Part shown: piece by piece, positions 15,845 to 30,731 of the stretch
Layout: each line of letters begins with the position of its first letter
Numbering within the stretch: position 1 is the first letter of the stretch
Program-made: the position numbers and the translations under genes
NCBI GenBank assembly: GCA_964395165.1
Contig: CAYMZY010000002.1
Location: 15,922 to 59,138, forward strand
Reading direction: 5' to 3'
DNA: 43,217 nt
Source of the DNA: an uncultured Bdellovibrionales bacterium
Lineage (GTDB): Bacteria; Patescibacteriota; Minisyncoccia; Moranbacterales; UBA1568
Notes under the pieces: model-generated
What the model was told of the DNA's origin: nothing
Seen by the model: the letters and a program-made list of their open reading frames with translations, nothing else
The model's database searches: none

Positions 15845-17065
15845 TTATTTGATATTCTCCATGACGCTGTACATCGGGGTCAGCATCGCTACTGCGAAAA
15901 ACCCGACCCCGCCACCAATGAGGAGCATCAGCACCGGCTCGATAATCGACGACATGTTTTTCGTGATCTGTGAGACCTCTTCCTCGTAGAACTCGGCCAG
16001 CTTTCTCAGAACCATTTCCGTTTTCCCGGTCTCCTCGCCGACCTGGATGATTTGAGGCACCAGTATCGGGAAGATACGGGGATACCTCAAAATCACCGTG
16101 CTCAGATCGATACCCTTCTGAATTTCCGCGATGGCCTCATCCAAAGCATCCCGGTAGTACGAGTTGGACAAGGTCTTTTTGACAATCGTCAGAGAATCGA
16201 GCACGGAAACGCCACTTTTCAGGAGCGAACTATAGATACGCGAAAACCGGGCAGAATTCACCTTGATAATGATGTTTCCGACGATGGGGAGCCGGAGAAA
16301 AAACCAATCGAAGAACCGTTTGCCGACCGATGTCGAAGCAAACAGCCGCACTCCGATAATACCCCCGAAAAAAATGGCTGCACTGGCGACCGCATGTCCA
16401 CGCATGAAATCACTCACCGCCATAATAAAACGTGTCGAAGCCGGAAGGGTGACGTTCATATCCTTGAAAACGCCGGTTATCCGCGGCAGGATATATGTCA
16501 GCATAAAAATACCGATGCCGATCATCGCGACGACGATCACCAATGGATAGATCATCGCCCCACGCACCTTCGAAAGAAGATCATTCTCCTTCTCAAGCTG
16601 CAGTGCCAGAATTTCCAGTATTTCCTCGAGATTCCCGGATATCTCTCCGACGTATACCATGCTCGTAAAAAGCTCATTGAACACTTTCGGGTATTTCCCG
16701 AGACCTTCAGATAAAGTCTTTCCGGCCTGCACCTCTTCATAGACATCGAGCAGTATCTTTCGAAAGGCCTCATTTTTCGTCTGAGTAGAGAGGTTCATCA
16801 CCGCCCGGGAAACCGTCAGACCCGATGAAACCATCACCGCGAGATTACGAGTGAATGTCATCTTTTCCTTGAGCGGAACCGAAACGAAACGGTCCAAAAA
16901 ACGCACCTGCACTACCGATGCGGTCTTTGCCTCCTTCATCGAAGTAACCAAGAGGCCGGCGGCATGCAAATCGGACGCGAGCATATGCTCATCCTTGGCT
17001 TCCTGTTCACCGCCAACCGTTTCACCAGTGGAAAGATTTTTCGCTGTGTAGAAAAACTTCGGCAT
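15845..17065 (-). CDS. pilC: Type IV pilus platform protein PilC (GspF family)
   Basis: 406-aa ORF with the typical MPKFFYTAKNLSTGE start and two GspF repeats with TM helices. Confidence 0.9.
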   Translation of the reverse strand: MPKFFYTAKNLSTGETVGGEQEAKDEHMLASDLHAAGLLVTSMKEAKTASVVQVRFLDRFVSVPLKEKMTFTRNLAVMVSSGLTVSRAVMNLSTQTKNEAFRKILLDVYEEVQAGKTLSEGLGKYPKVFNELFTSMVYVGEISGNLEEILEILALQLEKENDLLSKVRGAMIYPLVIVVAMIGIGIFMLTYILPRITGVFKDMNVTLPASTRFIMAVSDFMRGHAVASAAIFFGGIIGVRLFASTSVGKRFFDWFFLRLPIVGNIIIKVNSARFSRIYSSLLKSGVSVLDSLTIVKKTLSNSYYRDALDEAIAEIQKGIDLSTVILRYPRIFPILVPQIIQVGEETGKTEMVLRKLAEFYEEEVSQITKNMSSIIEPVLMLLIGGGVGFFAVAMLTPMYSVMENIK

Positions 17066-17217: not shown

Positions 17218-18138
17218 CTAAAGGGAACCTAACCGGTGTTTGAAAGCCTCGTACACGCGGGGACCACGTGGCCTTGGCAAGAAAACAAGAGCTCGATCGC
17301 TCGCCTCGATATAGCTTCCCTCCCAGCGTGTCTTCGGATTCCTTGAGATCTTTCCTCTCTGCCACGCCGCAAGAACGGATTCGATATCACAGAGGTCACA
17401 CCACCGTTCGAAGAAAGAGCGCAGTGAGTACCCATCGTTTTGATCGGAGACAGTCCAGAGCGTCGGGATCTCGGAAAGAGAAAAATTCGGCTTGAAACGA
17501 GCTATCCACCGGTTTCGAAGCTCGAACCTCTGAAAAATGGAATACTGGAACAACGGAATCATGAAACGATACTCATGTGCCGAAAAAAGATCCTGTGTTC
17601 CGATTTCCAAGCTCGTATCGGCGACGTAATAGTTGAGACAGGCCCGGTTCCGGATATGTTTCCCATGCCGCCATTTCCCCGAAAGAAACAGGAGTCCCGT
17701 CAAGATGAATCGACCCGTCCATATCTTACCGGCCCGCAACACGACGAACAGATCCCAATCACTGTCGATATTCCCATACTTCAAAGAAAGGCTCCCGGTA
17801 GCTCCGACGAAACGGACATAGGGTACGTGGCGGATGATACGGGCCAACCGCCTGATCCGTCTCAGCTTGGATACTGAGAGCTTCTCTTTCCGTATCCGTT
17901 CCCGCACAAGGAATTTCCGGCCAGGCAGGAAATAAAAACCGTCCTGCTCCCCTATCGTATTACTCGCGCATTCCCCCCTCAAAGTTGTCATGACTTCGAA
18001 ATACGAAGATGGCCGCGCCTCATTAGTCAACGTGATGAGATGCTTCCAGACTTCGAAAGCCGAAAGCGGAAACTCCAACACATCATAATAGGCGATCGTT
18101 TCAATGACATCTCTCGAAAGACGGTACATAAGAGTCAT
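17218..18138 (-). CDS. Nucleotidyltransferase-fold protein of unknown function
   Basis: 306-aa ORF. GATGSLSLKYGNIDSDWDLFVV fits the pol-beta-like NTase pattern (G[GS], about 10 residues, then D-x-D). Confidence 0.5.
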   Translation of the reverse strand: MTLMYRLSRDVIETIAYYDVLEFPLSAFEVWKHLITLTNEARPSSYFEVMTTLRGECASNTIGEQDGFYFLPGRKFLVRERIRKEKLSVSKLRRIRRLARIIRHVPYVRFVGATGSLSLKYGNIDSDWDLFVVLRAGKIWTGRFILTGLLFLSGKWRHGKHIRNRACLNYYVADTSLEIGTQDLFSAHEYRFMIPLFQYSIFQRFELRNRWIARFKPNFSLSEIPTLWTVSDQNDGYSLRSFFERWCDLCDIESVLAAWQRGKISRNPKTRWEGSYIEASDRALVFLPRPRGPRVYEAFKHRLGSL

Positions 18139-18201: not shown

Positions 18202-21009
18202 TCAGAGATACTTCCCGGTCATACTCCGCTTGCATGCTTTCAGTTTTTCCGGCTCTCCGGCGAATAAAAGCTCCCCCCCTTTTTCACCACCATCGGGTCC
18301 GAGCTCGATCACCCAGTCGGATGCCCGTATGACATCGATGTTGTGTTCGACGACCAAAACGCTGTTCCCACGGTCGACGAGAATTTCCAATACTTCAAGC
18401 AGACGCCGCACATCTTCGAAGTGAAGTCCGATAGTCGGTTCATCAAGGATGTAGAGCGTTTTCCCGGTCGACTTCCGGGCGAGTTCGGTCGCCAGCTTAA
18501 TACGCTGGGCTTCACCGCCCGAAAGATTCGTCGCGCTCTGCCCTAAGACGAGATATCCGAGACCGACCTCCTCCAGCACCCGAAGTTTCTCTTCGATAGC
18601 CGGTTGATCAAGAAAAAAGCGCCGAGCCTCGGAAACAGTCATCTTGAGCACCTGAGAGATATTTACCCCTCGATACTCGATTGCGAGTGTCTGCGTGTTA
18701 TACCTCGTCCCGCCGCACGCTTCGCAAGGCACGTAAACATCCGGAAGAAGATACATTTCGATCTTCCGCAATCCTCCACCCTGGCAGATTTCGCAACGTC
18801 CACCTCGCATATTAAAACTGAAATGCGTCGCCGAAAAACGCGCCTTACCGGCCTCTGGGGTTTCCGCGAACACATCCCGTATCAGACTGAATACTCCGGT
18901 ATAGGTTGCCGCATTCGAACGAGGAGTCCGTCCAATCGGATCCTGGTTCACCGTAATGACTTTGTCGATATGCGTAAGACCGGTGATCTTCTTGTGCGCT
19001 CCCGGCTCAGTCTTTGCGCGATAGAAATGCTTGGCCAAAGCCCGAGACAGGATGTCGTGGATCAGAGAAGATTTTCCTGATCCGGAAACGCCCGCGACGG
19101 AAACAAGCATCCCGAGAGGGATAACGCAATCGATATTCTTCAGGTTATGTTCTTCCGCTCCCTCGATGACGATACTCTCGCCGCTCCACTTCCTTGATTG
19201 CCTTTTGGTGGAGATCTGACGTCTTCCGGACAAATACTCCCCAGTCAACACCTTCGATTTCATCAGCTTCTCAGGTGTCCCGGCGAAGATGATCTCCCCG
19301 CCTTCCGGTCCAGCTCCCGGTCCGAGATCGATGACATAATCCGCCTGACGCATCATAGCTACGTCATGCTCGACGATCACAAGGGAATTATTCGCTTCCT
19401 TCAGATCAAGCAAAGCCCGTATGAGACGATCAGTATCACGACTGTGCAGCCCGACTGATGGTTCATCAAGGACATAAACAATTCCTGATAAGCCAGACTT
19501 CATCTGTACTGACAATCGGATGCGCTGAGCCTCACCACCCGACAAGGTATCTGCACCCCGACACAGTTCCAAATAGCCGAGGCCCACCTTTTCCACCGCC
19601 TTGAGCCGAGATTCGATCTCCCGAAAAAGAGTCATTATCACATCCCGCTCCTTCCCTGTCCGAATAATCTTCTCTTTCAAATCCCTACAGACGGCAAGTA
19701 GACGTTCGGTACTCAGATCAGCGAGATCGGCAAGAGAATATCCGAGCACGGTCACCGAGAGGGCTGACAATTTCAACCGCCTTCCCTGACACGCCGGACA
19801 GACTTGCGATTGCATGAACCCTTCTATTTCCTGGCGCAGATGATCAGATTTCGTATCCCGATACTTCTCCTCCAAAAAACGGATGACCCCCCGGAACCGA
19901 TGCGCATCCGTCTGCCATCCCTCTTCACCAAACAGAACTGCCTTCATCTGTTTGACCGAAAGCTGCTTCACCGGGACCGTCAAGGAGAAATGCAACCGTT
20001 TGGCAAGCAGAGATATCTCATGCATCGGACCATTCTCCCGTTGTCTTTCACTATGCAGCTTGCTCCATGGGCGGATCGCTCCTTCGGTGATCGAGAGAGA
20101 ATGATTCGGAATGATCAGTTCCGCATCGAATTCGAGCGTACGCCCGAGTCCGGTACATTTCGGACAGGCCCCTTCCGGGTTATTGAACGAGAAGTGGCTC
20201 GGTGTGTATTCCGGCAATCGGATATCGCATAACTCACACCGGTACTCATTATTATATGTTCTCATCTCCCCTCCTCCGTTCTGTAAAACAGTAAGCGTCC
20301 CCTTCCCGACTGCAAAGGCGGTCGAGAGAGAATCAAGCAATCGTTCCTTGTCCGGGCGAGCCTGATCCAAAACCAATCGATCGATAACGATATCGAACGG
20401 GTTCTCGTCCGAATGGGAAGCGGAAGCCAATGCATCAGCAATCGATATCGTTTCCTCACCACGCCGGATACGCACATACCCGAGACGGTCGACTACTTCC
20501 AGTGCCTCTCTTTCCGGCTTTCGATCAGTCTGATCGCTGTGCGCCACAATAACGATCGGCGTCTGATCAGGCAGAAGCAGGAGCTCTTCCATGATCTCCC
20601 TGGCCGTGATACGTTCCAGTACCTTCCGGCATGTCGGACAATGAGGAACACCGGTCTTGGTGAACAGGACACGAAGAAAGTCGTATACTTCCGTCATCGT
20701 GCCAACCGTCGAGCGAGGACTACGGGAAACACTCTTCTGATCGATGGAGATGGCGGGAGAAAGATTATTGATAGCGTCGACATCAGGCTTCTCGAAACCC
20801 TCCATGAAGTGCCGCGCATACGAGGAAAGCGATTCGACGTACCGTCGGTTCGCCTCCGCGAATACCGTATCGAACGCAAGGGAAGATTTTCCTGATCCGG
20901 ACAATCCCGTCACCACTACCAATGCGTTGCGCGGGATATCCACGTCCACGTTCTTCAGATTGTTCACGCGCGCACCCCGCACCTCAATCACCGACTTTTT
21001 ATCTGCCAT
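18202..21009 (-). CDS. uvrA: Excinuclease ABC subunit A, full-length paralog (insertion domain present)
   Basis: 935-aa ORF with two ABC modules ([14 protein letters not shown] and [13 protein letters not shown]; LSGGEAQRI twice). Zn modules: CPTC...CELC, CPKC...CPAC, CEIC...CEAC. Confidence 0.95.
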
Positions 21010-21087
21010 ACGGCTCAGGAATCTTATGAAAAAATATCACGAAAAAAAATCGGCTCCAGCTCTCTTCTCTGGCAATACGCGATGTAG

Positions 21088-21116
21088 AGTATACCGTTTT
21101 TCCGGAAGCGTGTAAA
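21088..21116 (-). promoter_or_regulatory. Candidate promoter for uvrA (paralog 1)
   Basis: The minus strand reads TTTACA (21116-21111), 17-nt spacer, TATACT (21093-21088), about 78 nt upstream of the ATG at 21009. Confidence 0.5.
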
Positions 21117-21151
21117 CCATCGGGAGACACGGAAAGTAAGTTCCGGAAATA

Positions 21152-22399
21152 CTACGCGAGCAGTGCCTTGCCTCGGCGTTTCCGATGGAGCGCAAGAGCA
21201 AAACGGTGTGCCTCTGCATTCGCTAAAAGCGCTTCGCTTTCAAAACGCTTCCGGAGACCTTCGGGACCGATAAGGTGGTCTGGCTGGTGCCGAGCATCTT
21301 TCACCACTCCGAGTATCGGAATCGAAAGCCCAGCAGCCGCGAGGACACGCTCAGCCACCTCTTGCTGCAGAAATGACCCATCCACCACTACGATTTCCGG
21401 CAACGACCACTCAGGATGACCGAATCGGCGAGTCAGCACCTCCTCCAGGGCCGAAAGATCATTTCCGCCATGTTCTCCACGCAACACGAATTGCCGATAC
21501 TCATCCTTATTCGGACGACCACGCTCGATGACAGTCATTACGCCGACCGTTTCGGTTCCGCCGAGATGCGCGACATCGTATGCCTCGATCCGATGCGGTT
21601 TCATCTCCCTGAGATCATCTTTCACAAGCGAAACATCCTGAATATGCGAAAGGGCAAACAACTGTCGTTTCAGACGTGCCGCTTCCTCGAAACGAAGCAT
21701 CTCCGCCTCGCGTCGCATATCCCGCTCGATTCCCTTCACCAACACGCTTTTCTTCCCCTCAAAAAAAAGCTCGATACGACGTATGATCTTCCGATACTCG
21801 ATGTCTCGGATACTCCCTACACAGACACCGGGACATAACCCAATCTGGAAGGAGAAACACGCCTGTCCGGAATCAGGAGTGCAGGTATCCCGGAATGGGA
21901 ATATCCGTCGAACGATCTTCATCACCTCACGCAACGCTGTTCCGGCCGGAAACGGTCCGAATACCTTCCGAACGGGGTCGCGGAATTTTCCCTGTGCGAA
22001 ATCCCTCCCACGTATCACGAGTACCCGAGGGAAAGACTCATCGGTTATGACCACATGGTTGAAGCTCTTGTCATCTTTCTCATCAGTATTGTACGCCGGC
22101 TGATACTCCTTGATGAGCCGAGACTCCAGAAGCAACGCCTCAAGCACGGAATCCGTCTCGCGATACGCGATATACCGCGCCCGTTCCAGCATAAGAACGA
22201 TTTTCGGTCCACGCGTCCCGAACATATCTCCGGAAAAGTAGCTCCGCACCCGATCGCGGAGCGAAGTCGCCTTACCGATGTAAAGAATCTCATCCGCGGC
22301 ATCCAGGAAAAAATACACTCCCGGACACTCGGGAAGCAATCCGGTCTCCTGACGCCAGGATACGAGATCATATCGATTGGTCCACTGGATTTTCGACAT
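21152..22399 (-). CDS. uvrC: Excinuclease ABC subunit C, short form lacking the C-terminal (HhH)2 domain
   Basis: 415-aa ORF with a GIY-YIG domain (GVYFFLDAADEILYIGKATSLRDRVRSYF) and a UVR motif (EMLRFEEAARLKRQLFAL). The RNase-H-like 5'-incision domain is present (IEAYDVAHLGG, GGNDLSAL, VVVDGS, AEAHRFA). The protein ends at HRKRRGKALLA. Confidence 0.85.
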   Translation of the reverse strand: MSKIQWTNRYDLVSWRQETGLLPECPGVYFFLDAADEILYIGKATSLRDRVRSYFSGDMFGTRGPKIVLMLERARYIAYRETDSVLEALLLESRLIKEYQPAYNTDEKDDKSFNHVVITDESFPRVLVIRGRDFAQGKFRDPVRKVFGPFPAGTALREVMKIVRRIFPFRDTCTPDSGQACFSFQIGLCPGVCVGSIRDIEYRKIIRRIELFFEGKKSVLVKGIERDMRREAEMLRFEEAARLKRQLFALSHIQDVSLVKDDLREMKPHRIEAYDVAHLGGTETVGVMTVIERGRPNKDEYRQFVLRGEHGGNDLSALEEVLTRRFGHPEWSLPEIVVVDGSFLQQEVAERVLAAAGLSIPILGVVKDARHQPDHLIGPEGLRKRFESEALLANAEAHRFALALHRKRRGKALLA

Positions 22400-22401
22400 A
22401 G

Positions 22402-22430
22402 TTGACTAAATCATATATTAACGGTATAAT
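22402..22430 (+). promoter_or_regulatory. Consensus sigma70-type promoter for the 22464 small ORF
   Basis: TTGACT (22402-22407), 17-nt spacer, TATAAT (22425-22430). A GAGAGG SD lies before the ATG at 22464. Confidence 0.65.
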
Positions 22431-22438
22431 ATATACAA
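22410..22438 (-). promoter_or_regulatory. Candidate uvrC promoter, interleaved with the divergent promoter; implies a near-leaderless uvrC mRNA
   Basis: The minus strand reads TTGTAT (22438-22433), 17-nt spacer, TATGAT (22415-22410). Only 10 nt separate the -10 from the uvrC ATG (22399), and there is no SD. Confidence 0.4.
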
Positions 22439-22463
22439 GTTCATCCACCCAGAGAGGTTCGAA

Positions 22464-22703
22464 ATGATGGCTCGAGTGAAGCCCAGATTCAAAATCACCG
22501 AACTTCGGGAGGCAGTGCTAGCACTCCTCGACGACAAAAGCGCTCCGGATTTCAGGTCTGCATTCGCACGCGTCATGCACGCACGCGGCATCTTCCACAG
22601 GAAAGATGAGCAGGAAACCTATAATTTCTACTTCAGAAAGCTCAAGCCACTCATCCTAACGGCACTCAATACCCGGAAACGCAAAGCGCAAAAACTCGTT
22701 TGA
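22464..22703 (+). CDS. Small basic protein of unknown function (79 aa)
   Basis: The ORF has its own consensus promoter, SD and intrinsic terminator. The C-terminus is Lys/Arg-rich (NTRKRKAQKLV). I recognise no family. Confidence 0.6.
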   Translation: MMARVKPRFKITELREAVLALLDDKSAPDFRSAFARVMHARGIFHRKDEQETYNFYFRKLKPLILTALNTRKRKAQKLV

Positions 22704-22734
22704 AGCAGCCTATCCTAAGGCTGTTCTTTTTTTT
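22704..22734 (+). terminator. Rho-independent terminator of the small ORF
   Basis: AGCAGCC (22704-10), 8-nt loop, GGCTGTT (22719-25), then C followed by a T-run (22727-22734). Confidence 0.7.
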
Positions 22735-22746
22735 AAACCGTACTCC

Positions 22747-23355
22747 TCATATTCCCATAGACACGATTCTTCCAACATCTCCGTTTCCACTCTCAAGCAG
22801 CGAGTGGTCTCGGAGCTCCTGCCGACGAAGCGAAGCGCCCGGCAAAACCGCCTCAAGCAATGTCCAAAAACGATGGCTGTGATTATGTTCTCGGAGATGG
22901 CAGAGCTCGTGGGCGACGATGTATTCCACCAGATGAGGTGGCAGGAAAACCAGACGATAATTGAAAGACAACGCTCCCTTGGCCGAACAACTCCCCCAAC
23001 GCGTCCGCTGATCCCGGATGGTGAGCGCTGTATAGCACCACTCCTGCCTCGCGCTCAAAACAGCGAGATGCTCTCGCACGAGAGCGAGAGCCGATTCACG
23101 ATAAGCAAGAAACCGCTCGCGTTCCATCGCCACCGGAAGTCGTGGTGAGTGTCCGGCATCCCGGAAACGAATCTGCGCCTCCGTTATCCAGGCCTGCTGA
23201 TTCACGAGGAAACGGCGGATCAGAGCAAGCGGTGCCAGGCGCGGAGCAGTGACCGTCACCTGTCCATCATGCGCCACCACCAAACGAAGATTCCGTAACC
23301 CGCGACGACGTCGGATCCGGATTGGTCTTCCCGAACTATCCTGAATTTCACTCAT
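22747..23355 (-). CDS. YgjP-like / DUF45 zinc metallopeptidase-fold protein
   Basis: 202-aa ORF with RDQRTRWGSCSAKGALSFNYRL followed by EYIVAHELCHLREHNHSHRFW (HExxH plus downstream His). Its start overlaps the uvrA-2 stop as ATGA (23352-23355). Confidence 0.82.
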   Translation of the reverse strand: MSEIQDSSGRPIRIRRRRGLRNLRLVVAHDGQVTVTAPRLAPLALIRRFLVNQQAWITEAQIRFRDAGHSPRLPVAMERERFLAYRESALALVREHLAVLSARQEWCYTALTIRDQRTRWGSCSAKGALSFNYRLVFLPPHLVEYIVAHELCHLREHNHSHRFWTLLEAVLPGASLRRQELRDHSLLESGNGDVGRIVSMGI

Positions 23356-25922
23356 CTCTTCAGTGCTTTCCTCAGGTACTGACCCGTATACGTTCCGGTC
23401 TTCTGCGCTACCTCTTCCGGTGTTCCGGTCGCGACAACTTTGCCGCCTCCCGACCCTCCCTCGGGACCGATATCGATGATATAGTCGGAGGATTTGATGA
23501 AATCCATATTGTGCTCGATCGTCACGACCGTGTTCCCCTTCACAACCAGACGGTCAAGTATCTCCACTAGTTTCCTCACATCAGCGTAATGAAGCCCGAT
23601 CGTCGGCTCATCCAGGAGATAGATGGTTCGTTCGATCTGCTGCCGGTACAGTTCCGAAGAGATCTTGACCCGCTGCGCCTCACCGCCCGAAAGCGTTGTC
23701 GCTGATTGGCCAAGCTTGAGATAGCCGAGGCCGACTTCGTTCAGTGTTTTTAGACGATCGGCAATCGCCGGAATCTCGTAGAAAAACGAGTACGCCTCCT
23801 CGATCGTCATATCGAGTATCTCGGCGATATGCTTATGTTTGTATTTCACTTCGAGCGTCTCCTTCATGAAACGCTTCCCGTCACACACGTCGCAAGGAAC
23901 ATAGACGGTCGGAAGAAAATGCATCTCGACGGCGATGAAACCATTACCTTCGCAGGTCTCACAACGTCCACCTGGACGATTGAAGGAGAAGCGTCCAGCT
24001 CTCCACCCGCGCACCCGCGCCTCTTCCGTTGAGGCGAACAGATCGCGCACATGTGTCCAAGCACCAGTATAGGTTGCTGGATTCGAACGCGGCGTTCGGC
24101 CGATGGGTGACTGGTCAATCAGCACCACTCGTGAAAGGTACTCGCTCCCGGTGAAATTCTTGCAGTGAAAGGTCTCATTGGATTTATAACGCCGATCGAA
24201 ACGAGCCTGGAGATTTTTATGAAGAATATCGTACAGAAAGGTCGATTTCCCGGAGCCGGACACACCGGTCACCGAAATGAAACGCCCGAGAGGCACGTCG
24301 ACATCCATATCCTGGATATTGAAAAGCCGGGCCCCGCGGATCCTCAAAGCACCCTTGTCCTTATGCCGACGGATTTCCGGAACCGGAAACTTCTCCTCTC
24401 CACGAAGGTACGCCAAGGTCAATGATCCGGAATCATTCTTTTTTGCGGTCAGAAGCTCCTCAAGAAAACCAGAAGCCACCACATGCCCCCCATGCACTCC
24501 GGCACCCGGTCCGATATCGACCAGGTAGTCGCTCGCGTAGATCGTATCCTCATCGTGTTCGACAATCAAGATCGTATTCCCCAGCGCTTGAAGATTTTTC
24601 AAGGTTTCAATAAGACGGTCATTATCCCGACTGTGCAGTCCGATCGTCGGTTCATCGAGCACGTAGAGCGCTCCTACCAACTGGCTTCCAAGCTGGGACG
24701 CCAGACGGATACGTTGCGCCTCACCACCAGAAAGCGTATTCGCCCGCCGATCGAGCGTCAAATAGTCAAGTCCGACATTCAGAAGGAAGCGCAGCCGGCT
24801 CCCTATCTCGCGAAGAACGACCGATGCGATCTGCTGTTCCCGCGGCGAAAGTTCAAGCGTCGCCAGAAACCGTTCCGCATCGCCAGTCGGCAGTGCTGTG
24901 ATCTCGACGATATTCTTCCCTCCGACCAGGATATGCAAAGCCTCTTCTCGCAAGCGCGACCCCTGGCAGGTCTCACAGGGATCGTCCCCGAAGAAATGCT
25001 TCGTTCCGAGACCATTACAAGCCTGACAGGCACCATAGGGAGAATTGAATGAGAAAAGCCTCGGTTCAACTTCCGGATAGGAAAATCCATCATACGGACA
25101 GGAGAATCGGGAGGAAAGAAGAGTGGACTCTTCACCGAGAATGACCTTGACCAGACCATCACTCTCCTCGAGCGCCCGCTCGACTGCCTCCGATAAGCGC
25201 TCCTCGGATGTCTCGGGAAACTGCTTGAATTCCCCCAGAGGAATTTCATCGACGATGAGATCGATATCGTGCTTCTTGTTCTTCGAAAGCAGTATCTGCT
25301 CGCGTAGACTATGCCGTTTGCCATCGAGAAGAATTTCCGCAAACCCCTTGTTGAGGGCGGCATACAAAAGCTGATAATATTCACCCTTGCGTCCCCGTAC
25401 GACCGGAGCCGTGATGGTGAGGCTTCCGGACCGTTTCGTTTTCCGCACCCGTTCGCGTACCAGCTCACGCATCTCCTCAGAAGAAAGCTTCTCGATCTTT
25501 CGCCCACAGGTAAGGCAGTGCGGCTCTCCGACGCGCGCGAACATGACACGCAGATAATCGTAAATTTCCGTCACTGTCGCGACGGTTGAACGAGGATTCC
25601 GGCTGGCCGACTTCTGATCGATGGAAATGGCTGGCGACAACCCCCGAATCTCATCGACATCCGGCTTCTGCATCGTATTGAGGAACTGCCTCGCATAAGC
25701 GGAAAGTGATTCGACATACCGCCGCTGACCTTCAGCAAAAATCGTATCAAAAGCCAATGACGACTTTCCAGATCCAGACAGCCCGGTAATGACGACCATG
25801 CGGTTGCGCGGCATATCGACATCGATATTCTTCAGATTGTGAGTTCGCGCACCCCGCACCTCGATCCATTCGGACGGGGTATACGGTGGTGACGGCACTT
25901 GAAATACTCTTTTTTTCGGCAT
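23352..25922 (-). CDS. uvrA: UvrA paralog 2 (856 aa) lacking the insertion domain
   Basis: The N-terminus is very canonical ([54 protein letters not shown]). The UvrB-binding-domain signature [12 protein letters not shown] is present. The segment between the CQACNGLG and CETCQG zinc ligands is only about 10 residues. Confidence 0.9.
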
Positions 25923-26003: not shown

Positions 26004-26711
26004 TCACCCCCTCTTCTCTGCAGCCTTCCTCAGTGCCCGAAGGAATCTCGCTTCATACGGACGTTCCGGATGAGCGACCACCTCGGTCCGACCTTCAGGA
26101 AGGTGGCGAAGGAAGTGGCACATATCGTCAATCCAATCGACGCTTACGAGATATTCCGAAGTCAGTCGGAGCTCTTCGCGCCACAGAATCCGATTCAAAC
26201 CGTGCAAAAAAGAAAGGATGCCTTTCGCCACATGGAAATGCACATCACCAAGGATCCCCTGTGAACCGAAACGGATATATTCGACACCATATTCTCTGGC
26301 AACTTCAAGAAAAACGGGGAAGAACGGAGGAAAAAAATGTATGTGCTCATGGGAATTCATACCATCCGGCAAGCGGCCGAATTTTTCCCGGAAAAGTTCT
26401 ATCTGGGAGCGCCATTCTTCCTTGACCAGGCGCGGAGCAAGGTTCCCACATACCAGATGCCAGATAAAGTTCATCAGACGTTTCACTGATGAATCACCTT
26501 CATTCTCACCTCGTCCAAGAAAACGGATAAGCTCGAGATGAATATCCAAGGCGACACCCGTCTCTTTCAACGCCAAAGCGTCCTCCATCGAAACAAAATG
26601 CGCCAAAACAGCGACCCGGTCCACGACGCCTTCTCGCACCAAGCGAAGAATCGGCGAAGAAGCCTCGCGTATACCATAGTCATCAGCGATGATGATAAGT
26701 TCCTTTTTCAT
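26004..26711 (-). CDS. YdjC/ChbG-family carbohydrate deacetylase-like protein
   Basis: ORF 26004..26747. The ATG at 26709-26711 gives MKKELIIIADDYGI. The ADDYG, DIHLEL and NSHEHIH motifs fit the YdjC family. Confidence 0.75.
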   Translation of the reverse strand: MKKELIIIADDYGIREASSPILRLVREGVVDRVAVLAHFVSMEDALALKETGVALDIHLELIRFLGRGENEGDSSVKRLMNFIWHLVCGNLAPRLVKEEWRSQIELFREKFGRLPDGMNSHEHIHFFPPFFPVFLEVAREYGVEYIRFGSQGILGDVHFHVAKGILSFLHGLNRILWREELRLTSEYLVSVDWIDDMCHFLRHLPEGRTEVVAHPERPYEARFLRALRKAAEKRG

Positions 26712-26792
26712 AGAATTTCTCCCTGATACCCTGCTTTCGGCAACCACCTCTATCCATGATCATCGTTCGGAAAACTGAAGCGGGGCCCAGAA

Positions 26793-27113
26793 TTACGAAC
26801 GCGATACCGACCATACCGGCTTGCCCGAAAGAATATGCCTTTCTATCGGAACACCTTCTCGGCCGAGACGATCAGCCTTCCCTTTCTCTCCGCCACGGTT
26901 ATAGGACCCGACCCGGCCGCAGCTTCGTATCACCCGATGACAAGGAATCCTGGGATCATGGTTTTTCTTCATAAGACTTCCTACCGCGCGAGCTGCTCCC
27001 GGAAAACCAGATTGCTTCGCTACGTCCGCATACGAAAGGGTCGACCCTTCCGGGATACGCACTACGATCTCACGAACTGATTCAGGAAAATTTCTTTCCG
27101 GATTTTTTGCCAT
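26793..27113 (-). CDS. MGMT-family protein, single DNA-binding/alkyltransferase domain with active-site Cys retained
   Basis: 106-aa ORF with a helix-turn-helix region (TLSYADVAKQSGFPGAARAVGSLM) and the IPCHRVI motif. Confidence 0.8.
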   Translation of the reverse strand: MAKNPERNFPESVREIVVRIPEGSTLSYADVAKQSGFPGAARAVGSLMKKNHDPRIPCHRVIRSCGRVGSYNRGGEKGKADRLGREGVPIERHILSGKPVWSVSRS

Positions 27114-27262: not shown

Positions 27263-28138
27263 CTATTCGATCTCGCCTGTTCCGAAGGCCTCCTTCAAAT
27301 CAGCCTTCGCTTGCTCAAGAGTCGACTTGAAAGCATCCAGAGCACTCTTCATCGCCGTCTGTCTCGTTTCTGCAAGATCCTTGATAATGAGTCCGAGAGT
27401 ATCCCCTTCCTTCCGTTCCGACTGAAGGGTATTGCGAGCCGATTTCAACGATGTCTGAAATGCACTCCGAACCGCATCCGGACTCTTCCCATCCGCACAG
27501 TCCTCTTTCGCTTGATTCAAGGCGACTTCGATTATAGCTCCGAAAGTTTCGATTCCTCCCGCGCGATTTTCTTTCTGCGTCATCACGGCCGCATCAACCG
27601 ATTTCCGGAAAGCACTGATCGCTGAATCGACGGCCTCACGCCGAGTATCGGCAGCAGCCTCGACGGTCTTCTTGAATTCCGCGACAGCCGCCTTCTTCTC
27701 GTCGGTATCGGCAGCAGCCTCCAGCTTTTCGTACCAGGCATTCCGCCTCGCATCCTGTTCTCCACGCTTCTCCGTCAGCGTATTGTCCCTGGCATCACGT
27801 TTCTCATCAAGATAGTCGATCCGCTTTTTCTTCCGATCAACAAACTTTCCCTTCTGCTCGACAAGGCGGCCTTTCATCTCCTCCATCCGGGAAGTGAAAT
27901 TTTCACAAAACTTCCCCTGACGCTCAGACTGACGTTCTTCCATATTCGCCTCACGTTCGACGCGACGTTCCTCCATCTTTTCCTGACGCGCGTTCTGTCG
28001 CTCTTCCATCCTTGTCTCACGACCGGACAGGCGCTCTTCCTCGTTTCCCATCATGGCCGCCGACACGGCATATGGAACCGCCGCAAAAGCAACGACACCA
28101 ATCAGGACCCGAGTGATATCAAAGGCTGTTTTCGTCAT
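27263..28138 (-). CDS. Secreted/anchored charged coiled-coil protein with internal repeats
   Basis: 291-aa ORF with an N-terminal hydrophobic segment (VLIGVVAFAAVPYAVSAA). It has MEER(Q/R) repeats and a duplicated EAAADT segment. I recognise no family. Confidence 0.6.
   Translation of the reverse strand: MTKTAFDITRVLIGVVAFAAVPYAVSAAMMGNEEERLSGRETRMEERQNARQEKMEERRVEREANMEERQSERQGKFCENFTSRMEEMKGRLVEQKGKFVDRKKKRIDYLDEKRDARDNTLTEKRGEQDARRNAWYEKLEAAADTDEKKAAVAEFKKTVEAAADTRREAVDSAISAFRKSVDAAVMTQKENRAGGIETFGAIIEVALNQAKEDCADGKSPDAVRSAFQTSLKSARNTLQSERKEGDTLGLIIKDLAETRQTAMKSALDAFKSTLEQAKADLKEAFGTGEIE
27645..27721. repeat. Intragenic direct repeat (17-mer GTATCGGCAGCAGCCTC twice, 60-nt period)
   Basis: Exact copies at 27645-27661 and 27705-27721. 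They encode the two EAAADT segments of the coiled-coil protein. Confidence 0.85.
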
Positions 28139-28478
28139 AGAATTGACTTACTTCATTAAGTGATGACCCCTCGTCCTCAAAAATCGATGACTCACCTGAT
28201 ACTTCGCCCGCCATCGCGGACTGATCGACTCCGCTTTCCCCTTCGATGTCGACAACGATCGCGTCCACGGTAGCCGGCTGGCGAGTGTCAGGGAGCGGAG
28301 CGCTCTGCGGTTCCTCAGAAAGACCTGGTTGAACCGGACGCGTATCCTGAGAGACAGCCAACGGGTTCTTTTCGGCTGGTGAAGACGGCGTATTCGACAT
28401 CTGTCGAACGATCGCGTACCCGAGCACAATGATAAGCGCCACGACTATGGCGACACCGGTAATTTTTTTGGCATCCAT
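28119..28478 (-). CDS. Single-pass membrane protein with an acidic, Ser/Pro-rich ectodomain
   Basis: ORF 28119..28598. I prefer the ATG at 28476-28478 (MDAKKITGVAIVVALIIVLGYAIV). Its 3' end overlaps the next gene's start by 20 nt. Confidence 0.5.
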   Translation of the reverse strand: MDAKKITGVAIVVALIIVLGYAIVRQMSNTPSSPAEKNPLAVSQDTRPVQPGLSEEPQSAPLPDTRQPATVDAIVVDIEGESGVDQSAMAGEVSGESSIFEDEGSSLNEVSQFYDENSL

Positions 28479-28660
28479 AAGAATTCTTTTTTTGATCTTT
28501 TTAGCGAATATAAATCGCCCGGAAAAAAGCTTCGACCCTCCTTCTTCAATTCCGGACATACCACTTCCAAGTATACCCGAAAAACATACTTTCCGCACGC
28601 AGAATGAACAAGACGAGACCTCAGTTCCCGTTTCCGAAAAAAGGAAATGAGTATTCGATA

Positions 28661-30694
28661 TTATCCACTCCGTTCACGCTTCGCTTCAAGTGCCCGGATC
28701 TCATCACGTAGAAGCGCAGCTGTCTCGAAATCGAGCGCCTTGACCGCCTGCTTCATCTCTTTTTCCTTGAGACGAATGAGCTTGGCCGGATCCTTGGCAA
28801 AAACCTGCTCATCGAGCGAAAGATTCACGCGCACCGCTTTCTCGTGTTCGCTTTCCAGATGTTCGGTGATGTCATGAATAGTCTTTTTGATAGTCTCCGG
28901 CGTGATGCCATGCGAGACATTGTATTCCGTCTGAATCTTCCGTCGCCGGTCCGTCTCATCCAGGGCGTACTTCATAGAGTTCGTAGTCCGGTCAGCATAC
29001 AGCACGACATGTCCATTCACATTACGCGCCGCCCGTCCGATAATCTGGATCAAAGAAGTTTCCGAACGCAAAAACCCTTCCTTGTCCGCGTCCAAAATCC
29101 CGATGAATGATACCTCCGGTAAATCAAGCCCTTCACGGAGAAGATTCACTCCGACCAGACAATCGAATTCCCCCTTACGGAAGGATGTCAGGATCTTGAT
29201 CCGGTCGATAGTCTTGATATCGCTGTGCAGATACTCCGATCTTATCCCTCTTTCTTTCAGATATACCGAGAGATCTTCTGCCATCTTCTTGGTGAGTGTC
29301 GTCGCAATCACCCGCCCGCCCTTGGAGACCTCCATCTCCGTCTCAGCGATGAAATCCCCGATCTGTCCAGGATATTCCGTCTCCGACACCGCCCGGACAC
29401 CACGTACTTCGACTACTGGATCGAGCAAGCCAGTCGGTCGGATCACCTGTTCCACGATCTGTGTGCTCTCTTCGCGCTCATAATCTGAAGGAGTGGCCGA
29501 AGTGAAGACAATCGGTCCAACCCGCTCCAGAAACTCCTCGATCCGAAGCGGGCGATTATCGAGAGCCGAGGGCAGACGAAATCCGAATTCGACCAGCGTC
29601 TGCTTGCGGGACCGATCGCCAGCATACATTCCGCGAAGCTGCGGCAGAGTCACATGCGACTCATCGATCACGGTCAGGAAGTCGGGCGTCCCATCCGGCA
29701 GGTGTGGAAAATACGACAAAAGCGTTTCAGCTGGTTCACCCGGTTGTTTCCCGGAAAGGTGCCGTGAATAATTCTCGATACCGCTACAGTATCCGATCTC
29801 TTCGATCATCGCGAGATCATACGTGGTCCGTCGTTTCAGGCGTTCGACTTCGAGAAGCTTTCCTTCCTTCTCAAGTTCCGCGAGACGGATCATCAGTTCC
29901 TCCCGGATATTGGACAATGCCTGTGATTTCTCACTCTCGTTGGTGATGAAATGCTTGGCCGGAAACAAAAAAATATCACGAGGCTCATCGAGAATCTTCT
30001 GCGTCACCGGGTCGATCTTAACGATGCGCCCGATCTTCCCCGCCAGGATATCGATGCTATACATATACTTCTCCGAAACCGGCATCACCTCGATGCGGTT
30101 CCCAAGACTTCGGAACGACCCGGATGTCAGGTCGGCGTTCGTCCGCTCGAAAAAGATCGACACCAGGGTATGGAGCAGCTCCGTCCGCGTCATGAGTGTC
30201 CCGATCGAAAGCCGCAGGTTTTTCTTCTCATACTCCGCCGGACTCCCTAAACCGTAGATACAGGACACGGATGCCACGATGATCGTATCGCGCCGAGTCA
30301 GAAGCGCCTGAGTAGACGCATGCCGCAACCGATCTATCTCCTCATTGATCTGCGCATCCTTCTCGATATACGTATCTGTCACCGGCAAATAGGCCTCCGG
30401 TTGATAGAAATCATAGTACGACACGAAATAATGCACCGCGTGATCGGGGAAAAATGTCTGATACTCCTGAGCCAGCTGAGCTGCCAAAGTCTTATTGTGA
30501 GCGATAACCAAAGTCGGTTTGCCGATATTCGCAATGACATTAGCCATCGTAAACGTCTTCCCGGATCCGGTCACTCCGAGCAGAGTTTGAAATGGGGCAT
30601 CTGACTCGACGCCTCGGGTAAGCGCCGCAATCGCCTTCGGCTGATCCCCCGCTGGTGCCCAATCTGATTCAATATTGAATATTGACTTTTGCAT
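28661..30694 (-). CDS. uvrB: Excinuclease ABC subunit B
   Basis: ORF 28661..30724. The ATG at 30692-30694 gives MQKSIFNIESDWAPAGDQPKAI, matching the canonical UvrB N-terminal spacing. GVTGSGKTFTMAN, helicase motifs and a C-terminal UVR motif (FETAALLRDEIRAL) are present. Confidence 0.95.
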   Translation of the reverse strand: MQKSIFNIESDWAPAGDQPKAIAALTRGVESDAPFQTLLGVTGSGKTFTMANVIANIGKPTLVIAHNKTLAAQLAQEYQTFFPDHAVHYFVSYYDFYQPEAYLPVTDTYIEKDAQINEEIDRLRHASTQALLTRRDTIIVASVSCIYGLGSPAEYEKKNLRLSIGTLMTRTELLHTLVSIFFERTNADLTSGSFRSLGNRIEVMPVSEKYMYSIDILAGKIGRIVKIDPVTQKILDEPRDIFLFPAKHFITNESEKSQALSNIREELMIRLAELEKEGKLLEVERLKRRTTYDLAMIEEIGYCSGIENYSRHLSGKQPGEPAETLLSYFPHLPDGTPDFLTVIDESHVTLPQLRGMYAGDRSRKQTLVEFGFRLPSALDNRPLRIEEFLERVGPIVFTSATPSDYEREESTQIVEQVIRPTGLLDPVVEVRGVRAVSETEYPGQIGDFIAETEMEVSKGGRVIATTLTKKMAEDLSVYLKERGIRSEYLHSDIKTIDRIKILTSFRKGEFDCLVGVNLLREGLDLPEVSFIGILDADKEGFLRSETSLIQIIGRAARNVNGHVVLYADRTTNSMKYALDETDRRRKIQTEYNVSHGITPETIKKTIHDITEHLESEHEKAVRVNLSLDEQVFAKDPAKLIRLKEKEMKQAVKALDFETAALLRDEIRALEAKRERSG

Positions 30695-30710
30695 AGATTT
30701 AGAGTATAAT
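30682..30710 (+). promoter_or_regulatory. Consensus sigma70-type promoter firing away from uvrB
   Basis: TTGACT (30682-30687), 17-nt spacer, TATAAT (30705-30710). The uvrB start codon (30692-30694) lies inside the spacer. Confidence 0.55.
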
Positions 30711-30731
30711 AGAAGAACAAGCATTTAGCAA
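30703..30731 (-). promoter_or_regulatory. Candidate uvrB promoter with its -10 overlapping the divergent -10; implies leaderless uvrB
   Basis: The minus strand reads TTGCTA (30731-30726), 17-nt spacer, TATACT (30708-30703). Only 8 nt separate the -10 from the ATG, and there is no SD. Confidence 0.4.

What the first reader, a model, noticed from the sequence alone, without database searches (positions are those of the whole stretch)
18202..25922. Two UvrA paralogs with complementary domain changes
Paralog 2 (23352-25922, 856 aa) has a very canonical ABC core and the canonical UvrB-binding-domain signature [12 protein letters not shown]. In it, however, the zinc ligands CQACNGLG and CETCQG are separated by only about 10 residues. 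The roughly 100-aa insertion domain found at this position in E. coli UvrA is therefore cleanly absent.

Paralog 1 (18202-21009, 935 aa) keeps that insertion (CPKCTGLG, about 115 aa, then CPACQG). At the equivalent of the RKGE signature it reads [15 protein letters not shown], with Gly replaced by Pro and divergent flanks.

Described atypical UvrA classes mostly lack the UvrB-binding domain, so an insertion-domain-less copy is the less familiar pattern. UvrA acts as a dimer. One copy may therefore be the better UvrB loader and the other the better DNA clamp, which raises the possibility of heterodimers or division of labour.
Basis: partly seen in the sequence, partly recalled or inferred. Interest (0 to 1): 0.75.

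Follow-up and report, generated by a model that had tools for sequence, protein, structure and literature searches.

The report
Natural UvrA lacking its insertion domain
This Moranbacteria (Patescibacteria) genome encodes two UvrA DNA-damage sensors: one is the conserved repair-cluster copy found across many Patescibacteria, which has cleanly lost the ~110-residue DNA-clamping insertion domain, and the other is a fast-evolving full-length extra copy seen only in Moranbacteria, so nature has already run a deletion experiment on a domain that one recent structural model places at the centre of damage recognition.

Summary
Both ORFs are intact UvrAs above NCBIfam's equivalog cut-offs. P2 (23352-25922, 856 aa) lacks E. 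coli residues ~291-404, the insertion domain (ID). The four Zn-module-2 cysteines are kept, joined by 13 residues. P1 (18202-21009, 935 aa) has all domains.

The interpretation needs re-centring. P2 is not an odd accessory copy. The same junction (C-x2[12 protein letters not shown][DE]-x-C-x2-C) occurs in 79 of the 80 best GTDB species loci across Patescibacteria and in all 120 best protein clusters. It usually sits in a uvrB – uvrA(ΔID) – uvrC cluster with no P1 within 10 kb. It branches with canonical class I UvrAs and keeps every checked ATPase, zinc, wedge, Zn-hairpin, DNA-binding and UvrB-interface residue.

P1 is the derived copy. Named relatives are almost all Moranbacteria. It sits on a long branch and evolves faster. 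It is changed at E. coli G502, R722/R724/R730, E222, the RKGE motif, wedge Q65 and hairpin F755. Its UvrB-binding domain still folds confidently.

A P1:P2 heterodimer is neither shown nor excluded. Fused double UvrAs with one ID-bearing and one ID-less half are common in other phyla and offer a precedent. No description of a natural ID-less UvrA was found.

The parts
23352..25922 (-). P2: class I UvrA lacking the insertion domain (856 aa). It is the conserved uvrA of the Patescibacteria NER cluster.
   Evidence: Clade conservation. AF2 model pLDDT 82, best structural match 3uwx_A with TM 0.86.
24954..25028 (-). Deletion junction in P2, residues 299-323: [25 protein letters not shown]. The Zn-module-2 cysteine pairs are joined by 13 residues instead of ~115.
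   Evidence: alignment. (same spacing in 79/80 loci and 120/120 clusters). (pLDDT 80-88 over this stretch).
25098..25526 (-). UvrB-binding domain of P2 (about residues 133-275), with a canonical R-K-G-E-Y motif and the equivalents of E. coli R216 and E222.
   Evidence: PF17760, 76 bits. (RKGEY in 81/81; R216 in 81/81; E222 position is E/Q/D).
18202..21009 (-). P1: full-length but strongly derived UvrA paralog (935 aa) whose named relatives are almost all Moranbacteria.
   Evidence: Long branch in the tree. Clade-specific replacements. AF2 pLDDT 84.
19804..20142 (-). Insertion domain of P1 (about residues 290-402).
   Evidence: PF17755, 78.6 bits, residues 295-396. (114-121 residues between the Zn2 pairs across the clade).
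20230..20652 (-). UvrB-binding domain of P1 (about residues 120-260). It folds confidently, but the RKGE motif is degenerate and E. coli E222 is replaced.
   Evidence: PF17760, 50.5 bits.. (pLDDT 86-93).
21152..22399 (-). Short UvrC (415 aa): GIY-YIG, UVR motif and RNase H endonuclease domain. There is no (HhH)2 domain, and only 15 residues separate the UVR motif from the RNase H domain.
   Evidence: aligns to 2nrt_A residues 21-164 of 220. Homologs sit next to the ΔID uvrA in most loci.
22747..23355 (-). YgjP-like zinc metallopeptidase (202 aa, HELCH motif). Its start overlaps the P2 stop by 4 nt.
   Evidence: PF01863, 147 bits. Homologs lie within 10 kb of uvrA in 10 of the 80 loci, all in the Moranbacteria-range group L002-L018.
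28661..30724 (-). UvrB (687 aa), the only one in the window. Domain 2 keeps B. caldotenax R183, R194 and R223; E215 is D.
   Evidence: Pfam. (alignment to 2fdc_A).

Best explanation
P2 is the lineage's principal nucleotide-excision-repair damage sensor. It is an ortholog of class I UvrA that lost the insertion domain once, early in a large part of Patescibacteria. It probably works as a homodimer. It would bind DNA through signature domain II and the Zn3 hairpin, test the duplex with the ATP-driven wedge (C. thermocellum Y62/Q65/F66) and hairpin Phe, and load the single UvrB through its canonical UvrB-binding domain. The short UvrC would then cut.

This looks like a streamlined NER machine in which two accessory DNA-binding modules have been dropped: the UvrA insertion domain and the UvrC (HhH)2 domain.

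P1 is an extra paralog seen only in Moranbacteria. It keeps all domains and ATPase motifs, but its DNA-sensing and UvrB-contact surfaces have been remodelled. It most likely acts as its own dimer on a different or narrower set of DNA structures, and may still hand over to UvrB.

Shown: domain content, conservation, gene neighbourhoods, residue patterns and phylogenetic placement. Inferred: homodimer function, sufficiency of the wedge mechanism, and the role of P1.
For: Distribution and conservation of P2:
- The ΔID junction with identical 13-residue spacing occurs in 120/120 clusters and 79/80 GTDB species loci, including Moran-, Taylor-, Lloyd- and Zambryskibacteria, Paceibacteria and Minisyncoccia.
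- Most loci read uvrB – ΔID uvrA – uvrC. An ID-bearing uvrA lies within 10 kb in only 3 of 80.
- In the NJ tree the P2 clade has bootstrap 100 and sits with E. coli, Bst, C. thermocellum and two other single UvrAs (bootstrap 95). P1 is on a separate long stem of 0.245.
- Core identity to Bst UvrA is 59% for P2 and 52% for P1. P1 and P2 share 46%.

Functional residues:
- The P2 clade keeps both Walker A lysines, 11 of 12 zinc cysteines (the twelfth is Asp in all 81), E. coli R216, G502, R712 and R730. E222, R722 and R724 are conserved or conservatively replaced. Wedge Y62/Q65/F66 and hairpin F755 are kept in 81/81.

Evidence that P1 is the derived copy:
- P1 has 42 class-changing replacements at positions fixed in canonical plus P2 sequences. 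P2 has 17 in the reverse test.
- On shared contigs P1 diverges faster than P2: 72.5 vs 80.5%, 72.9 vs 80.3% and 61.7 vs 73.8% identity.
- P1 is syntenic with an unknown 306-aa gene and the type IV pilus cluster, not with P2.

Literature:
- Bst ΔID UvrA showed no defect on a short substrate. E. coli Δ290-400 incises but discriminates damaged DNA poorly (PMC3025350).
- In C. thermocellum UvrA the ID contacts only straight DNA and becomes mobile in the ATP-bound states with bent DNA (PMC12796330).
Against: - Whether Patescibacteria outside Moranbacteria carry a second UvrA elsewhere in the genome could not be checked.
- In Mycobacterium UvrA the IDs clamp and melt DNA, and one of them is proposed to hold the flipped base (PMC11985968). 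Ecm16 without its ID does not bind DNA at all (PMC10192343). An ID-less homodimer sensor is therefore not an obvious expectation.
- No biochemical data exist for either protein.
- The tree is a neighbour-joining tree with few canonical outgroups.
- P1 and P2 sit about 2.3 kb apart on the same strand in this window, L002 and L004 (about 4.2 kb in L019), which is compatible with joint action.
Confidence: 0.6

Rival explanations
1. In Moranbacteria P1 and P2 form an asymmetric heterodimer. P1 supplies the single insertion domain (the 'recognition' ID), and P2 supplies the better UvrB-loading domain, free of ID gating. This would be the unfused equivalent of double UvrAs that have one ID.
For: - Of 104 complete fused double UvrAs among the 150 best 50%-identity representatives, 37 are [UBD+ID]-[UBD+ΔID] and 4 are the reverse order, from Fibrobacterales, Planctomycetota and others.
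- The two paralogs share contigs. They are on the same locus in the window, L002, L004 and L019, and at least 14 contig lengths are common to the lists.
- 11 of 14 published dimer-interface and wedge positions are identical in both clades.
- The Mycobacterium cryo-EM work proposes a division of labour between a recognition-ID and a support-ID. It also finds UvrB binding and ID–DNA contact mutually exclusive within one protomer (PMC11985968).
Against: - A P2-type uvrA has no P1 within 10 kb in 77 of 80 loci, so it must work in those genomes without a nearby partner.
- P1 is not syntenic with P2 in L082, L085 and L086, the last two being 1.09- and 1.05-Mb CP-accession (probably complete) genome records.
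- P1's paired interface change, C. thermocellum G80 to N and its contact M508 to S, both in 121/122 sequences, looks like a self-matched homodimer interface.
- P1 does not group with the ID-bearing halves of fused proteins (bootstrap 29).
Confidence: 0.17
2. Division of labour by pathway. P1 is the global-genome damage sensor, because it has the ID. P2 is specialised for recruited loading of UvrB, for example transcription-coupled repair through Mfd, where damage discrimination by UvrA is not needed.
For: - E. coli UvrA Δ290-400 is more impaired in global NER than in Mfd-dependent repair, and the UvrB-binding domain is also the likely Mfd-binding domain (PMC3025350).
- P2 has the more canonical UvrB-binding domain.
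Against: - P1, the supposed global sensor, has lost conserved DNA-binding and discrimination-linked residues: G502K, R724E, R730H and F755L.
- P2 is the copy found throughout the Patescibacteria loci examined, usually beside uvrB and uvrC.
- No mfd gene is present in the window, and its presence in these genomes was not testable.
Confidence: 0.1
3. P1 works outside canonical NER. It would recognise particular DNA-bound ligands or structures, as class II UvrA2, DrrC or Ecm16 do, and would not hand over to UvrB.
For: - P1 has a remodelled DNA-binding surface and UvrB-contact residues, and it evolves fast.
- In Ecm16 the ID sequence sets substrate specificity (PMC10192343).
Against: - P1 keeps a confidently folded UvrB-binding domain with Zn module 1 and R216 in 122/122 sequences. 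Class II proteins lack both the domain and the module.
- It scores above the UvrA equivalog cut-off.
- It lies directly downstream of uvrC here and in L084.
Confidence: 0.1

Closest known systems
Class I UvrA (E. coli UvrA; B. stearothermophilus 2R6F/3UWX; C. thermocellum 9GXK; M. tuberculosis 3ZQJ)
   Same: - Two ABC ATPase modules, three zinc modules and a UvrB-binding domain.
- Conserved signature-II DNA-binding residues, wedge and Zn3 hairpin in P2.
- 54-59% core identity for P2, and a structural match of TM 0.86 to 3uwx_A.
- Encoded beside uvrB and uvrC.
   Different: - P2 lacks the whole insertion domain (E. coli 291-404), and its fourth Zn1 ligand is Asp.
- P1 has the ID but differs at G502, E222, R722/R724/R730, Q65 and F755.
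Engineered ID deletions: E. coli UvrA Δ290-400 and B. stearothermophilus UvrA ΔID
   Same: The boundaries are almost the same as the natural deletion in P2. These mutants remain ATPases that bind UvrB and support incision of short damaged duplexes (PMC3025350).
   Different: - The laboratory constructs discriminate damaged DNA poorly on plasmid substrates.
- P2 is a naturally selected form, 66-81% identical across the 80 best GTDB species loci, with a conserved [10 protein letters not shown] connector.
Class II UvrA (D. radiodurans UvrA2 2VF7, DrrC, Ecm16 7SH1)
   Same: They are UvrA paralogs that coexist with a canonical copy and have a modified domain set.
   Different: Class II proteins lack the UvrB-binding domain and Zn module 1 and keep the ID. 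P2 is the opposite, and P1 keeps everything. Sequence and structure matches are weaker: 618 vs 1037 bits for P2, and 37% or 32% identity.
Fused double-length UvrAs (about 1,750-1,960 aa; NCBIfam NF001885-type)
   Same: Many combine one ID-bearing unit and one ID-less unit, each with a UvrB-binding domain (37 of 104). This is the same pair of architectures as P1 plus P2.
   Different: - They are one polypeptide.
- Their ID-less linkers are heterogeneous (10-48 residues) and unrelated to the Patescibacteria junction.
- No specific phylogenetic link to P1 or P2 was found.

Membership tests
Class I UvrA | Two ABC ATPase modules with intact Walker A lysines, signature motifs and Walker B/H-loop | tested here: met
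   K37 and K646 equivalents are present in 122/122 P1-type and 81/81 P2-type sequences. [11 protein letters not shown] and EH motifs are visible in the alignment.
Class I UvrA | Score above the curated UvrA equivalog cut-offs | tested here: met
   NF001503: P1 1182.7 and P2 1240.4 bits against a cut-off of 1147. TIGR00630: 1128 and 1182 bits against 729.8.
Class I UvrA | UvrB-binding domain with Zn module 1 | tested here: met
   PF17760 scores 50.5 bits (P1) and 76 bits (P2) against a cut-off of 23.3. Zn1 ligands are conserved, with the fourth being Asp in the P2 clade, and R216 is invariant. Actual binding to UvrB was not tested.
Class I UvrA | Insertion (DNA-binding) domain between the two cysteine pairs of Zn module 2 | tested here: not met
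   This applies to P2: no PF17755 hit, and 13 residues between the pairs. P1 meets the feature (78.6 bits). P2 is therefore filed as a variant of class I, not a standard member.
Class I UvrA | Damage-specific DNA binding and UvrB loading | not testable with these tools
   This needs EMSA, incision assays or complementation.
Class II UvrA (UvrA2/DrrC/Ecm16) | Absence of the UvrB-binding domain and Zn module 1, with the insertion domain retained | tested here: not met
   Both paralogs have PF17760, and P2 lacks the ID. Matches to 2vf7 and 7sh1 are much weaker than to class I structures.
Fused double UvrA | Two complete UvrA units (four Walker A motifs) in one polypeptide | tested here: not met
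   P1 and P2 are separate ORFs 2.3 kb apart, with ygjP and uvrC between them.

The most novel reading that the evidence does not exclude
Across a large part of Patescibacteria, damage recognition in nucleotide excision repair runs without the UvrA insertion domain. In Moranbacteria the ID-less subunit additionally pairs with the derived ID-bearing paralog into an asymmetric one-ID sensor. That sensor would be the unfused counterpart of the [UBD+ID]-[UBD+ΔID] double UvrAs that recur in other phyla. One ID, or none, would then be a natural working state of UvrA.
Probability: 0.17. Interest if true: 0.8.

Novelty: new variant of a known kind. Interest (0 to 1): 0.62.

Why it matters
The role of the UvrA insertion domain is disputed.
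- An ID-deleted B. stearothermophilus UvrA looked normal in vitro, while the E. coli deletion lost damage discrimination (PMC3025350).
- A 2025 Mycobacterium cryo-EM study places the IDs at the centre of DNA clamping, melting and base flipping (PMC11985968).
- A second 2025 study of C. thermocellum UvrA puts the weight on ATP-driven conformations, a Y/Q/F wedge and the Zn-hairpin Phe. In that work the IDs become mobile once the DNA bends (PMC12796330).

The Patescibacteria protein is a natural, long-conserved ID deletion. It keeps the wedge, the hairpin and the UvrB-binding domain, and it sits in a uvrB–uvrA–uvrC cluster. This gives a ready-made system for asking whether the ID is needed for damage recognition in vivo.

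The same genomes also carry a UvrC without its (HhH)2 domain. Together the two proteins suggest a minimal NER machine.

The Moranbacteria pair, and the one-ID fused UvrAs in other phyla, make the question of asymmetric UvrA dimers directly testable. All of these proteins are currently annotated simply as 'excinuclease ABC subunit UvrA'.

Tried and rejected
- **Representative search.** It was meant to map how widely single ID-less UvrAs occur. The top 150 were swamped by double-length UvrAs, whose two units add up in score. It was useful for the fused architectures but not for breadth.
- **Third homolog search.** I used the most divergent P1 ortholog (L019) to look for P1 outside Moranbacteria. 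Every named hit but two was again Moranbacteria; the exceptions were one 'Minisyncoccota' and one 'Undibacterium sp.' label. Only the best 120 are listed, so absence elsewhere is not proven.
- **Genome-level co-occurrence.** Co-occurrence of P1, P2 and mfd could not be tested.
- **Interface paper.** The paper defining the UvrA–UvrB interface (Pakotiprapha 2009, JBC) is not held. I used the residues quoted in PMC3025350 and PMC3458569 instead.
- **First tree script.** The Biopython bootstrap script timed out. I replaced it with a numpy NJ tree with 100 bootstraps.
- **Rejected readings.**
  - P2 as a pseudogene or assembly artefact: rejected on conservation in 200 independent sequences with intact motifs.
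  - P2 as class II or a drug-resistance UvrA: rejected because it has the UvrB-binding domain.
  - P1 and P2 as recent duplicates: rejected because they share 46% core identity, less than either shares with Bst UvrA.
- **Promoter and terminator scan.** It gave only weak consensus hits and was not used.

Full report
**1. What is in the window**

The region lies in a run of genes that are all on the minus strand. In order of transcription they are:

| Gene | Coordinates | Size | Notes |
|---|---|---|---|
| uvrB | 28661-30724 | 687 aa | |
| two ORFs without family matches | 28119-28598, 27263-28138 | 159, 291 aa | |
| O6-alkylguanine transferase domain | 26793-27113 | 106 aa | |
| ydjC-like gene | 26004-26747 | 247 aa | |
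| P2 | 23352-25922 | 856 aa | |
| YgjP-like metallopeptidase | 22747-23355 | 202 aa | start overlaps the P2 stop by 4 nt |
| short uvrC | 21152-22399 | 415 aa | |
| P1 | 18202-21009 | 935 aa | |
| unknown gene | 17218-18138 | 306 aa | |
| type IV pilus cluster | from pilC, 15845-17065 | | |

Close relatives of both UvrAs are named Candidatus Moranbacteria or Moraniibacteriota, which belong to the Patescibacteria.

**2. Check of the observation**

Both proteins exceed the curated UvrA equivalog cut-offs (NF001503: 1182.7 and 1240.4 bits against 1147).

P2 has the UvrB-binding domain (PF17760, 76 bits) but no insertion domain (PF17755). P1 has both, at 50.5 and 78.6 bits.

Against B. stearothermophilus UvrA, P2 aligns to chain residues 22-304 and then 417-958, whereas P1 aligns colinearly. 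Against E. coli UvrA, fetched as L001, P2 lacks residues ~291-404. It keeps C277/C280 and C406/C409, which are joined by [13 protein letters not shown].

An AlphaFold2 model of P2 has a mean pLDDT of 82, and 80-88 across the junction. Its best structural match is UvrA from the UvrA–UvrB crystal structure (3uwx_A, TM 0.86). Class II UvrA2 and Ecm16 rank far lower.

**3. The ID-less form is the rule in a large clade, not an oddity**

- The 120 best clusters for P2 are 77-100% identical and about 850-870 aa long. None has PF17755.
- A scan of one genome per GTDB species found 593 relatives. The best 80 loci are 66-81% identical. Their names include Moran-, Taylor-, Lloyd- and Zambryskibacteria, Paceibacteria, Minisyncoccia and 'Parcubacteria group'.
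- The spacing between the Zn2 cysteine pairs is exactly 13 residues in 79 of 80 loci and in 120 of 120 clusters.
- The connector is conserved: C-x2[12 protein letters not shown][DE]-x-C-x2-C-x-G-x-R. P1-type proteins have spacings of 114-121. One ancient, clean deletion is the simplest reading.
- In most loci the gene order is uvrB – ΔID uvrA – uvrC. An ID-bearing uvrA lies within 10 kb only in L002, L004 and L019, all labelled Moranbacteria.

**4. Which paralog is the derived one**

I built a neighbour-joining tree on 813 shared columns with 100 bootstraps.

- The P2 clade has bootstrap 100. Its sister is another ID-less single protein, P0355.
- This group sits with E. coli, B. stearothermophilus, C. 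thermocellum and two other single UvrAs (bootstrap 95).
- P1 forms its own clade (bootstrap 100) on a long stem of 0.245. It is not sister to P2.

Core identities from the same alignment:

| Pair | Identity |
|---|---|
| P1–P2 | 45.6% |
| P1–Bst | 52.3% |
| P2–Bst | 59.2% |
| E. coli–Bst | 64.9% |

On contigs that carry both genes, P1 is always the more diverged:

| Comparison with the window | P1 identity | P2 identity |
|---|---|---|
| L002 | 72.5% | 80.5% |
| L004 | 72.9% | 80.3% |
| L019 | 61.7% | 73.8% |

P1 relatives down to 62% identity that carry a name are almost all Moranbacteria. They include two CP-accession genome records of 1.05 and 1.09 Mb, probably complete chromosomes. P1 is consistently followed by the 306-aa gene and the pilus cluster, while its upstream neighbour varies.

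**5. Functional residues**

I used an alignment of 122 P1-type, 81 P2-type and 5 canonical UvrAs. Both clades keep both Walker A lysines. P1 keeps all 12 zinc cysteines. The P2 clade keeps 11, with the fourth Zn1 ligand being Asp in 81/81.

| Position | Role | P2 clade | P1 clade |
|---|---|---|---|
| E. coli R216 | UvrB interface | R, 81/81 | R, 122/122 |
| E. coli E222 | UvrB interface | E/Q/D | Q/H/A/S |
| E. coli 158-162 | R-K-G-E motif in the UBD | R-K-G-E-Y | degenerate, with two one-residue deletions |
| E. coli G502 | G502D cannot tell damaged from undamaged DNA (PMC3025350) | G, 81/81 | K, 120/122 |
| E. coli R722/R724/R730 | signature-II DNA-binding arginines | R (K) | E/E/H(Y), with basic residues moved to 723 and 725 |
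| C. thermocellum Y62/Q65/F66 | wedge | unchanged, 81/81 | Q65 becomes N/T/H |
| C. thermocellum F755 | Zn-hairpin Phe | F, 81/81 | L, 122/122 |
| E. coli E548-D549 | follows the H-loop | conserved | V-A |

In total, 42 positions fixed in canonical plus P2 sequences carry a residue of another chemical class in P1. The reverse test gives 17 for P2.

P1's UvrB-binding domain is nevertheless modelled with pLDDT 86-93. The domain is present and folded, with a changed surface.

The window's UvrB keeps B. caldotenax R183, R194 and R223, and E215 is Asp.

**6. Bearing on the heterodimer idea**

Eleven of the 14 published C. thermocellum dimer-interface and wedge positions are identical in P1, P2 and canonical UvrAs. 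Heterodimers are therefore not excluded.

P1 has a paired change at two residues that contact each other across the interface: G80 to N and M508 to S, each in 121/122 sequences. This looks more like a self-matched P1 interface, but it is only suggestive.

A precedent for one-ID dimers exists. Among 104 complete double-length UvrAs in the representative search, the architectures were:

| Architecture (N-terminal unit – C-terminal unit) | Count |
|---|---|
| [UBD+ID] – [UBD+ΔID] | 37 |
| [UBD+ID] – [UBD+ID] | 30 |
| [ΔUBD+ID] – [ΔUBD+ID] (double class II) | 17 |
| [UBD+ΔID] – [UBD+ID] | 4 |
| [UBD+ΔID] – [UBD+ΔID] | 1 |

The remaining 15 had other or unresolved patterns. The short linkers in the ID-less units range from 10 to 48 residues and are heterogeneous.

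This sample is biased by the ID-less query, and no specific kinship to P1 or P2 was found.

**7. Mechanism proposed**

The best reading (about 0.6) has two parts.
- P2 is the working NER sensor of these bacteria and acts as a homodimer. Recognition relies on signature domain II, the Zn3 hairpin and the ATP-driven wedge. In the C. thermocellum structures these are the elements that engage bent DNA after the IDs have become mobile (PMC12796330).
- Without an ID, the steric competition between ID–DNA contact and UvrB binding described for Mycobacterium UvrA (PMC11985968) would not exist. The UvrB-binding domain could then be constantly available. This step is inference.

The expected cost is poorer discrimination against undamaged DNA, as seen for E. 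coli Δ290-400. That cost may be more tolerable in ~1-Mb genomes, but this is speculation.

P1 is read as an accessory sensor with altered specificity.

Rival readings are a P1:P2 heterodimer (0.17), a split between global and transcription-coupled repair (0.1), and a non-NER role for P1 (0.1).

**8. Comparison with known classes and novelty**

- P2 meets every tested class I criterion except possession of the ID.
- It fails the class II definition, which requires absence of the UvrB-binding domain.
- It is a single-length protein, so it is not a fused double UvrA.

Literature searches for natural UvrAs without the ID, and for UvrA in Patescibacteria or the Candidate Phyla Radiation, found only engineered deletions. 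The library does not hold most subscription journals, so an earlier mention cannot be ruled out.

I rate P2 as a new variant of a known kind. It is of real interest to NER specialists because it bears on a current disagreement about what the ID does.

Noticed in passing
window 21152-22399 (-); also next to uvrA in most of L018-L080: The UvrC is only 415 aa: GIY-YIG, UVR motif and RNase H endonuclease domain. It has no (HhH)2 domain, and only 15 residues separate the UVR motif from the RNase H domain, where canonical UvrCs have a central domain of ~130 aa. tblastn hits of ~1.2 kb beside the ΔID uvrA suggest this short form is common in Patescibacteria. Together with the ID-less UvrA it looks like a streamlined NER set.
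   Followed up: partly
proteins P0241-P0390 (representative search): Among 104 complete double-length UvrAs, the commonest architecture (37) is a full unit followed by a unit that keeps the UvrB-binding domain but lacks the insertion domain. Seventeen are double class II-like, and one lacks the ID in both units. Named examples come from Fibrobacterales and Planctomycetota. Loss of the ID has evidently happened many times, since the linkers are unrelated.
   Followed up: partly
window 22747-23355 (-): A YgjP-like zinc metallopeptidase (PF01863, HELCH motif; a very weak, sub-threshold WLM match, E 0.009, 16.6 bits vs cut-off 26) starts 4 nt before the P2 stop, so the two may be translationally coupled. 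Homologs lie within 10 kb of uvrA in 10 of the 80 loci, all in the Moranbacteria-range group L002-L018. A repair-linked protease role is conceivable but untested.
   Followed up: no
window 17218-18138 (-); L082 12815-13741, L084 12918-13838, L085 12869-13804: A gene of 306-311 aa with no Pfam match follows P1 directly in the window, L002, L004, L082, L083, L084 and L085 (not L086), ahead of the type IV pilus genes. It contains a G-S ... D-x-D pattern (GATGSLSL...DSDWDLF) that recalls nucleotidyltransferase folds, read by eye only.
   Followed up: no
window 26793-27113 (-): A 106-aa protein consists only of the DNA-binding/active-site domain of O6-alkylguanine-DNA alkyltransferase and has an intact PCHRV motif. 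It lies between uvrB and P2. Homologs occupy the same position in several Moranbacteria loci.
   Followed up: no
P2 residue 278 (window ~25089-25091) and all 81 P2-type sequences: The fourth ligand of Zn module 1 (E. coli C256) is Asp in every ID-less Patescibacteria UvrA, and also in one of the five canonical comparators. It is Cys in all 122 P1-type sequences.
   Followed up: partly
window 28661-30724 (-), UvrB residues ~199-200: The positions aligned with B. caldotenax UvrB R189-R190 read T-S. R190 is described as strictly conserved and needed for DNA binding by domain 2 (PMC3458569). R213 is Ser. This rests on one pairwise alignment only.
   Followed up: no
L085 5427-6926 (CP064989.1, Moranbacteria): A CD-NTase plus Cap15-like pair (a CBASS-type defence module), a LexA-like gene and phage terminase and ParB-methylase genes lie just upstream of the P1 ortholog in a 1.09-Mb Moranbacteria genome record (CP064989.1).
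   Followed up: no
window 1-43217: Nearly all long ORFs are on the minus strand, GC skew is negative throughout, and no tRNA genes were found. Other repair-related genes in the window are MgsA/RarA (3513-4742), an Xth-like endonuclease/exonuclease/phosphatase (6221-7012) and an ExoX-like exonuclease (34954-35685).
   Followed up: no
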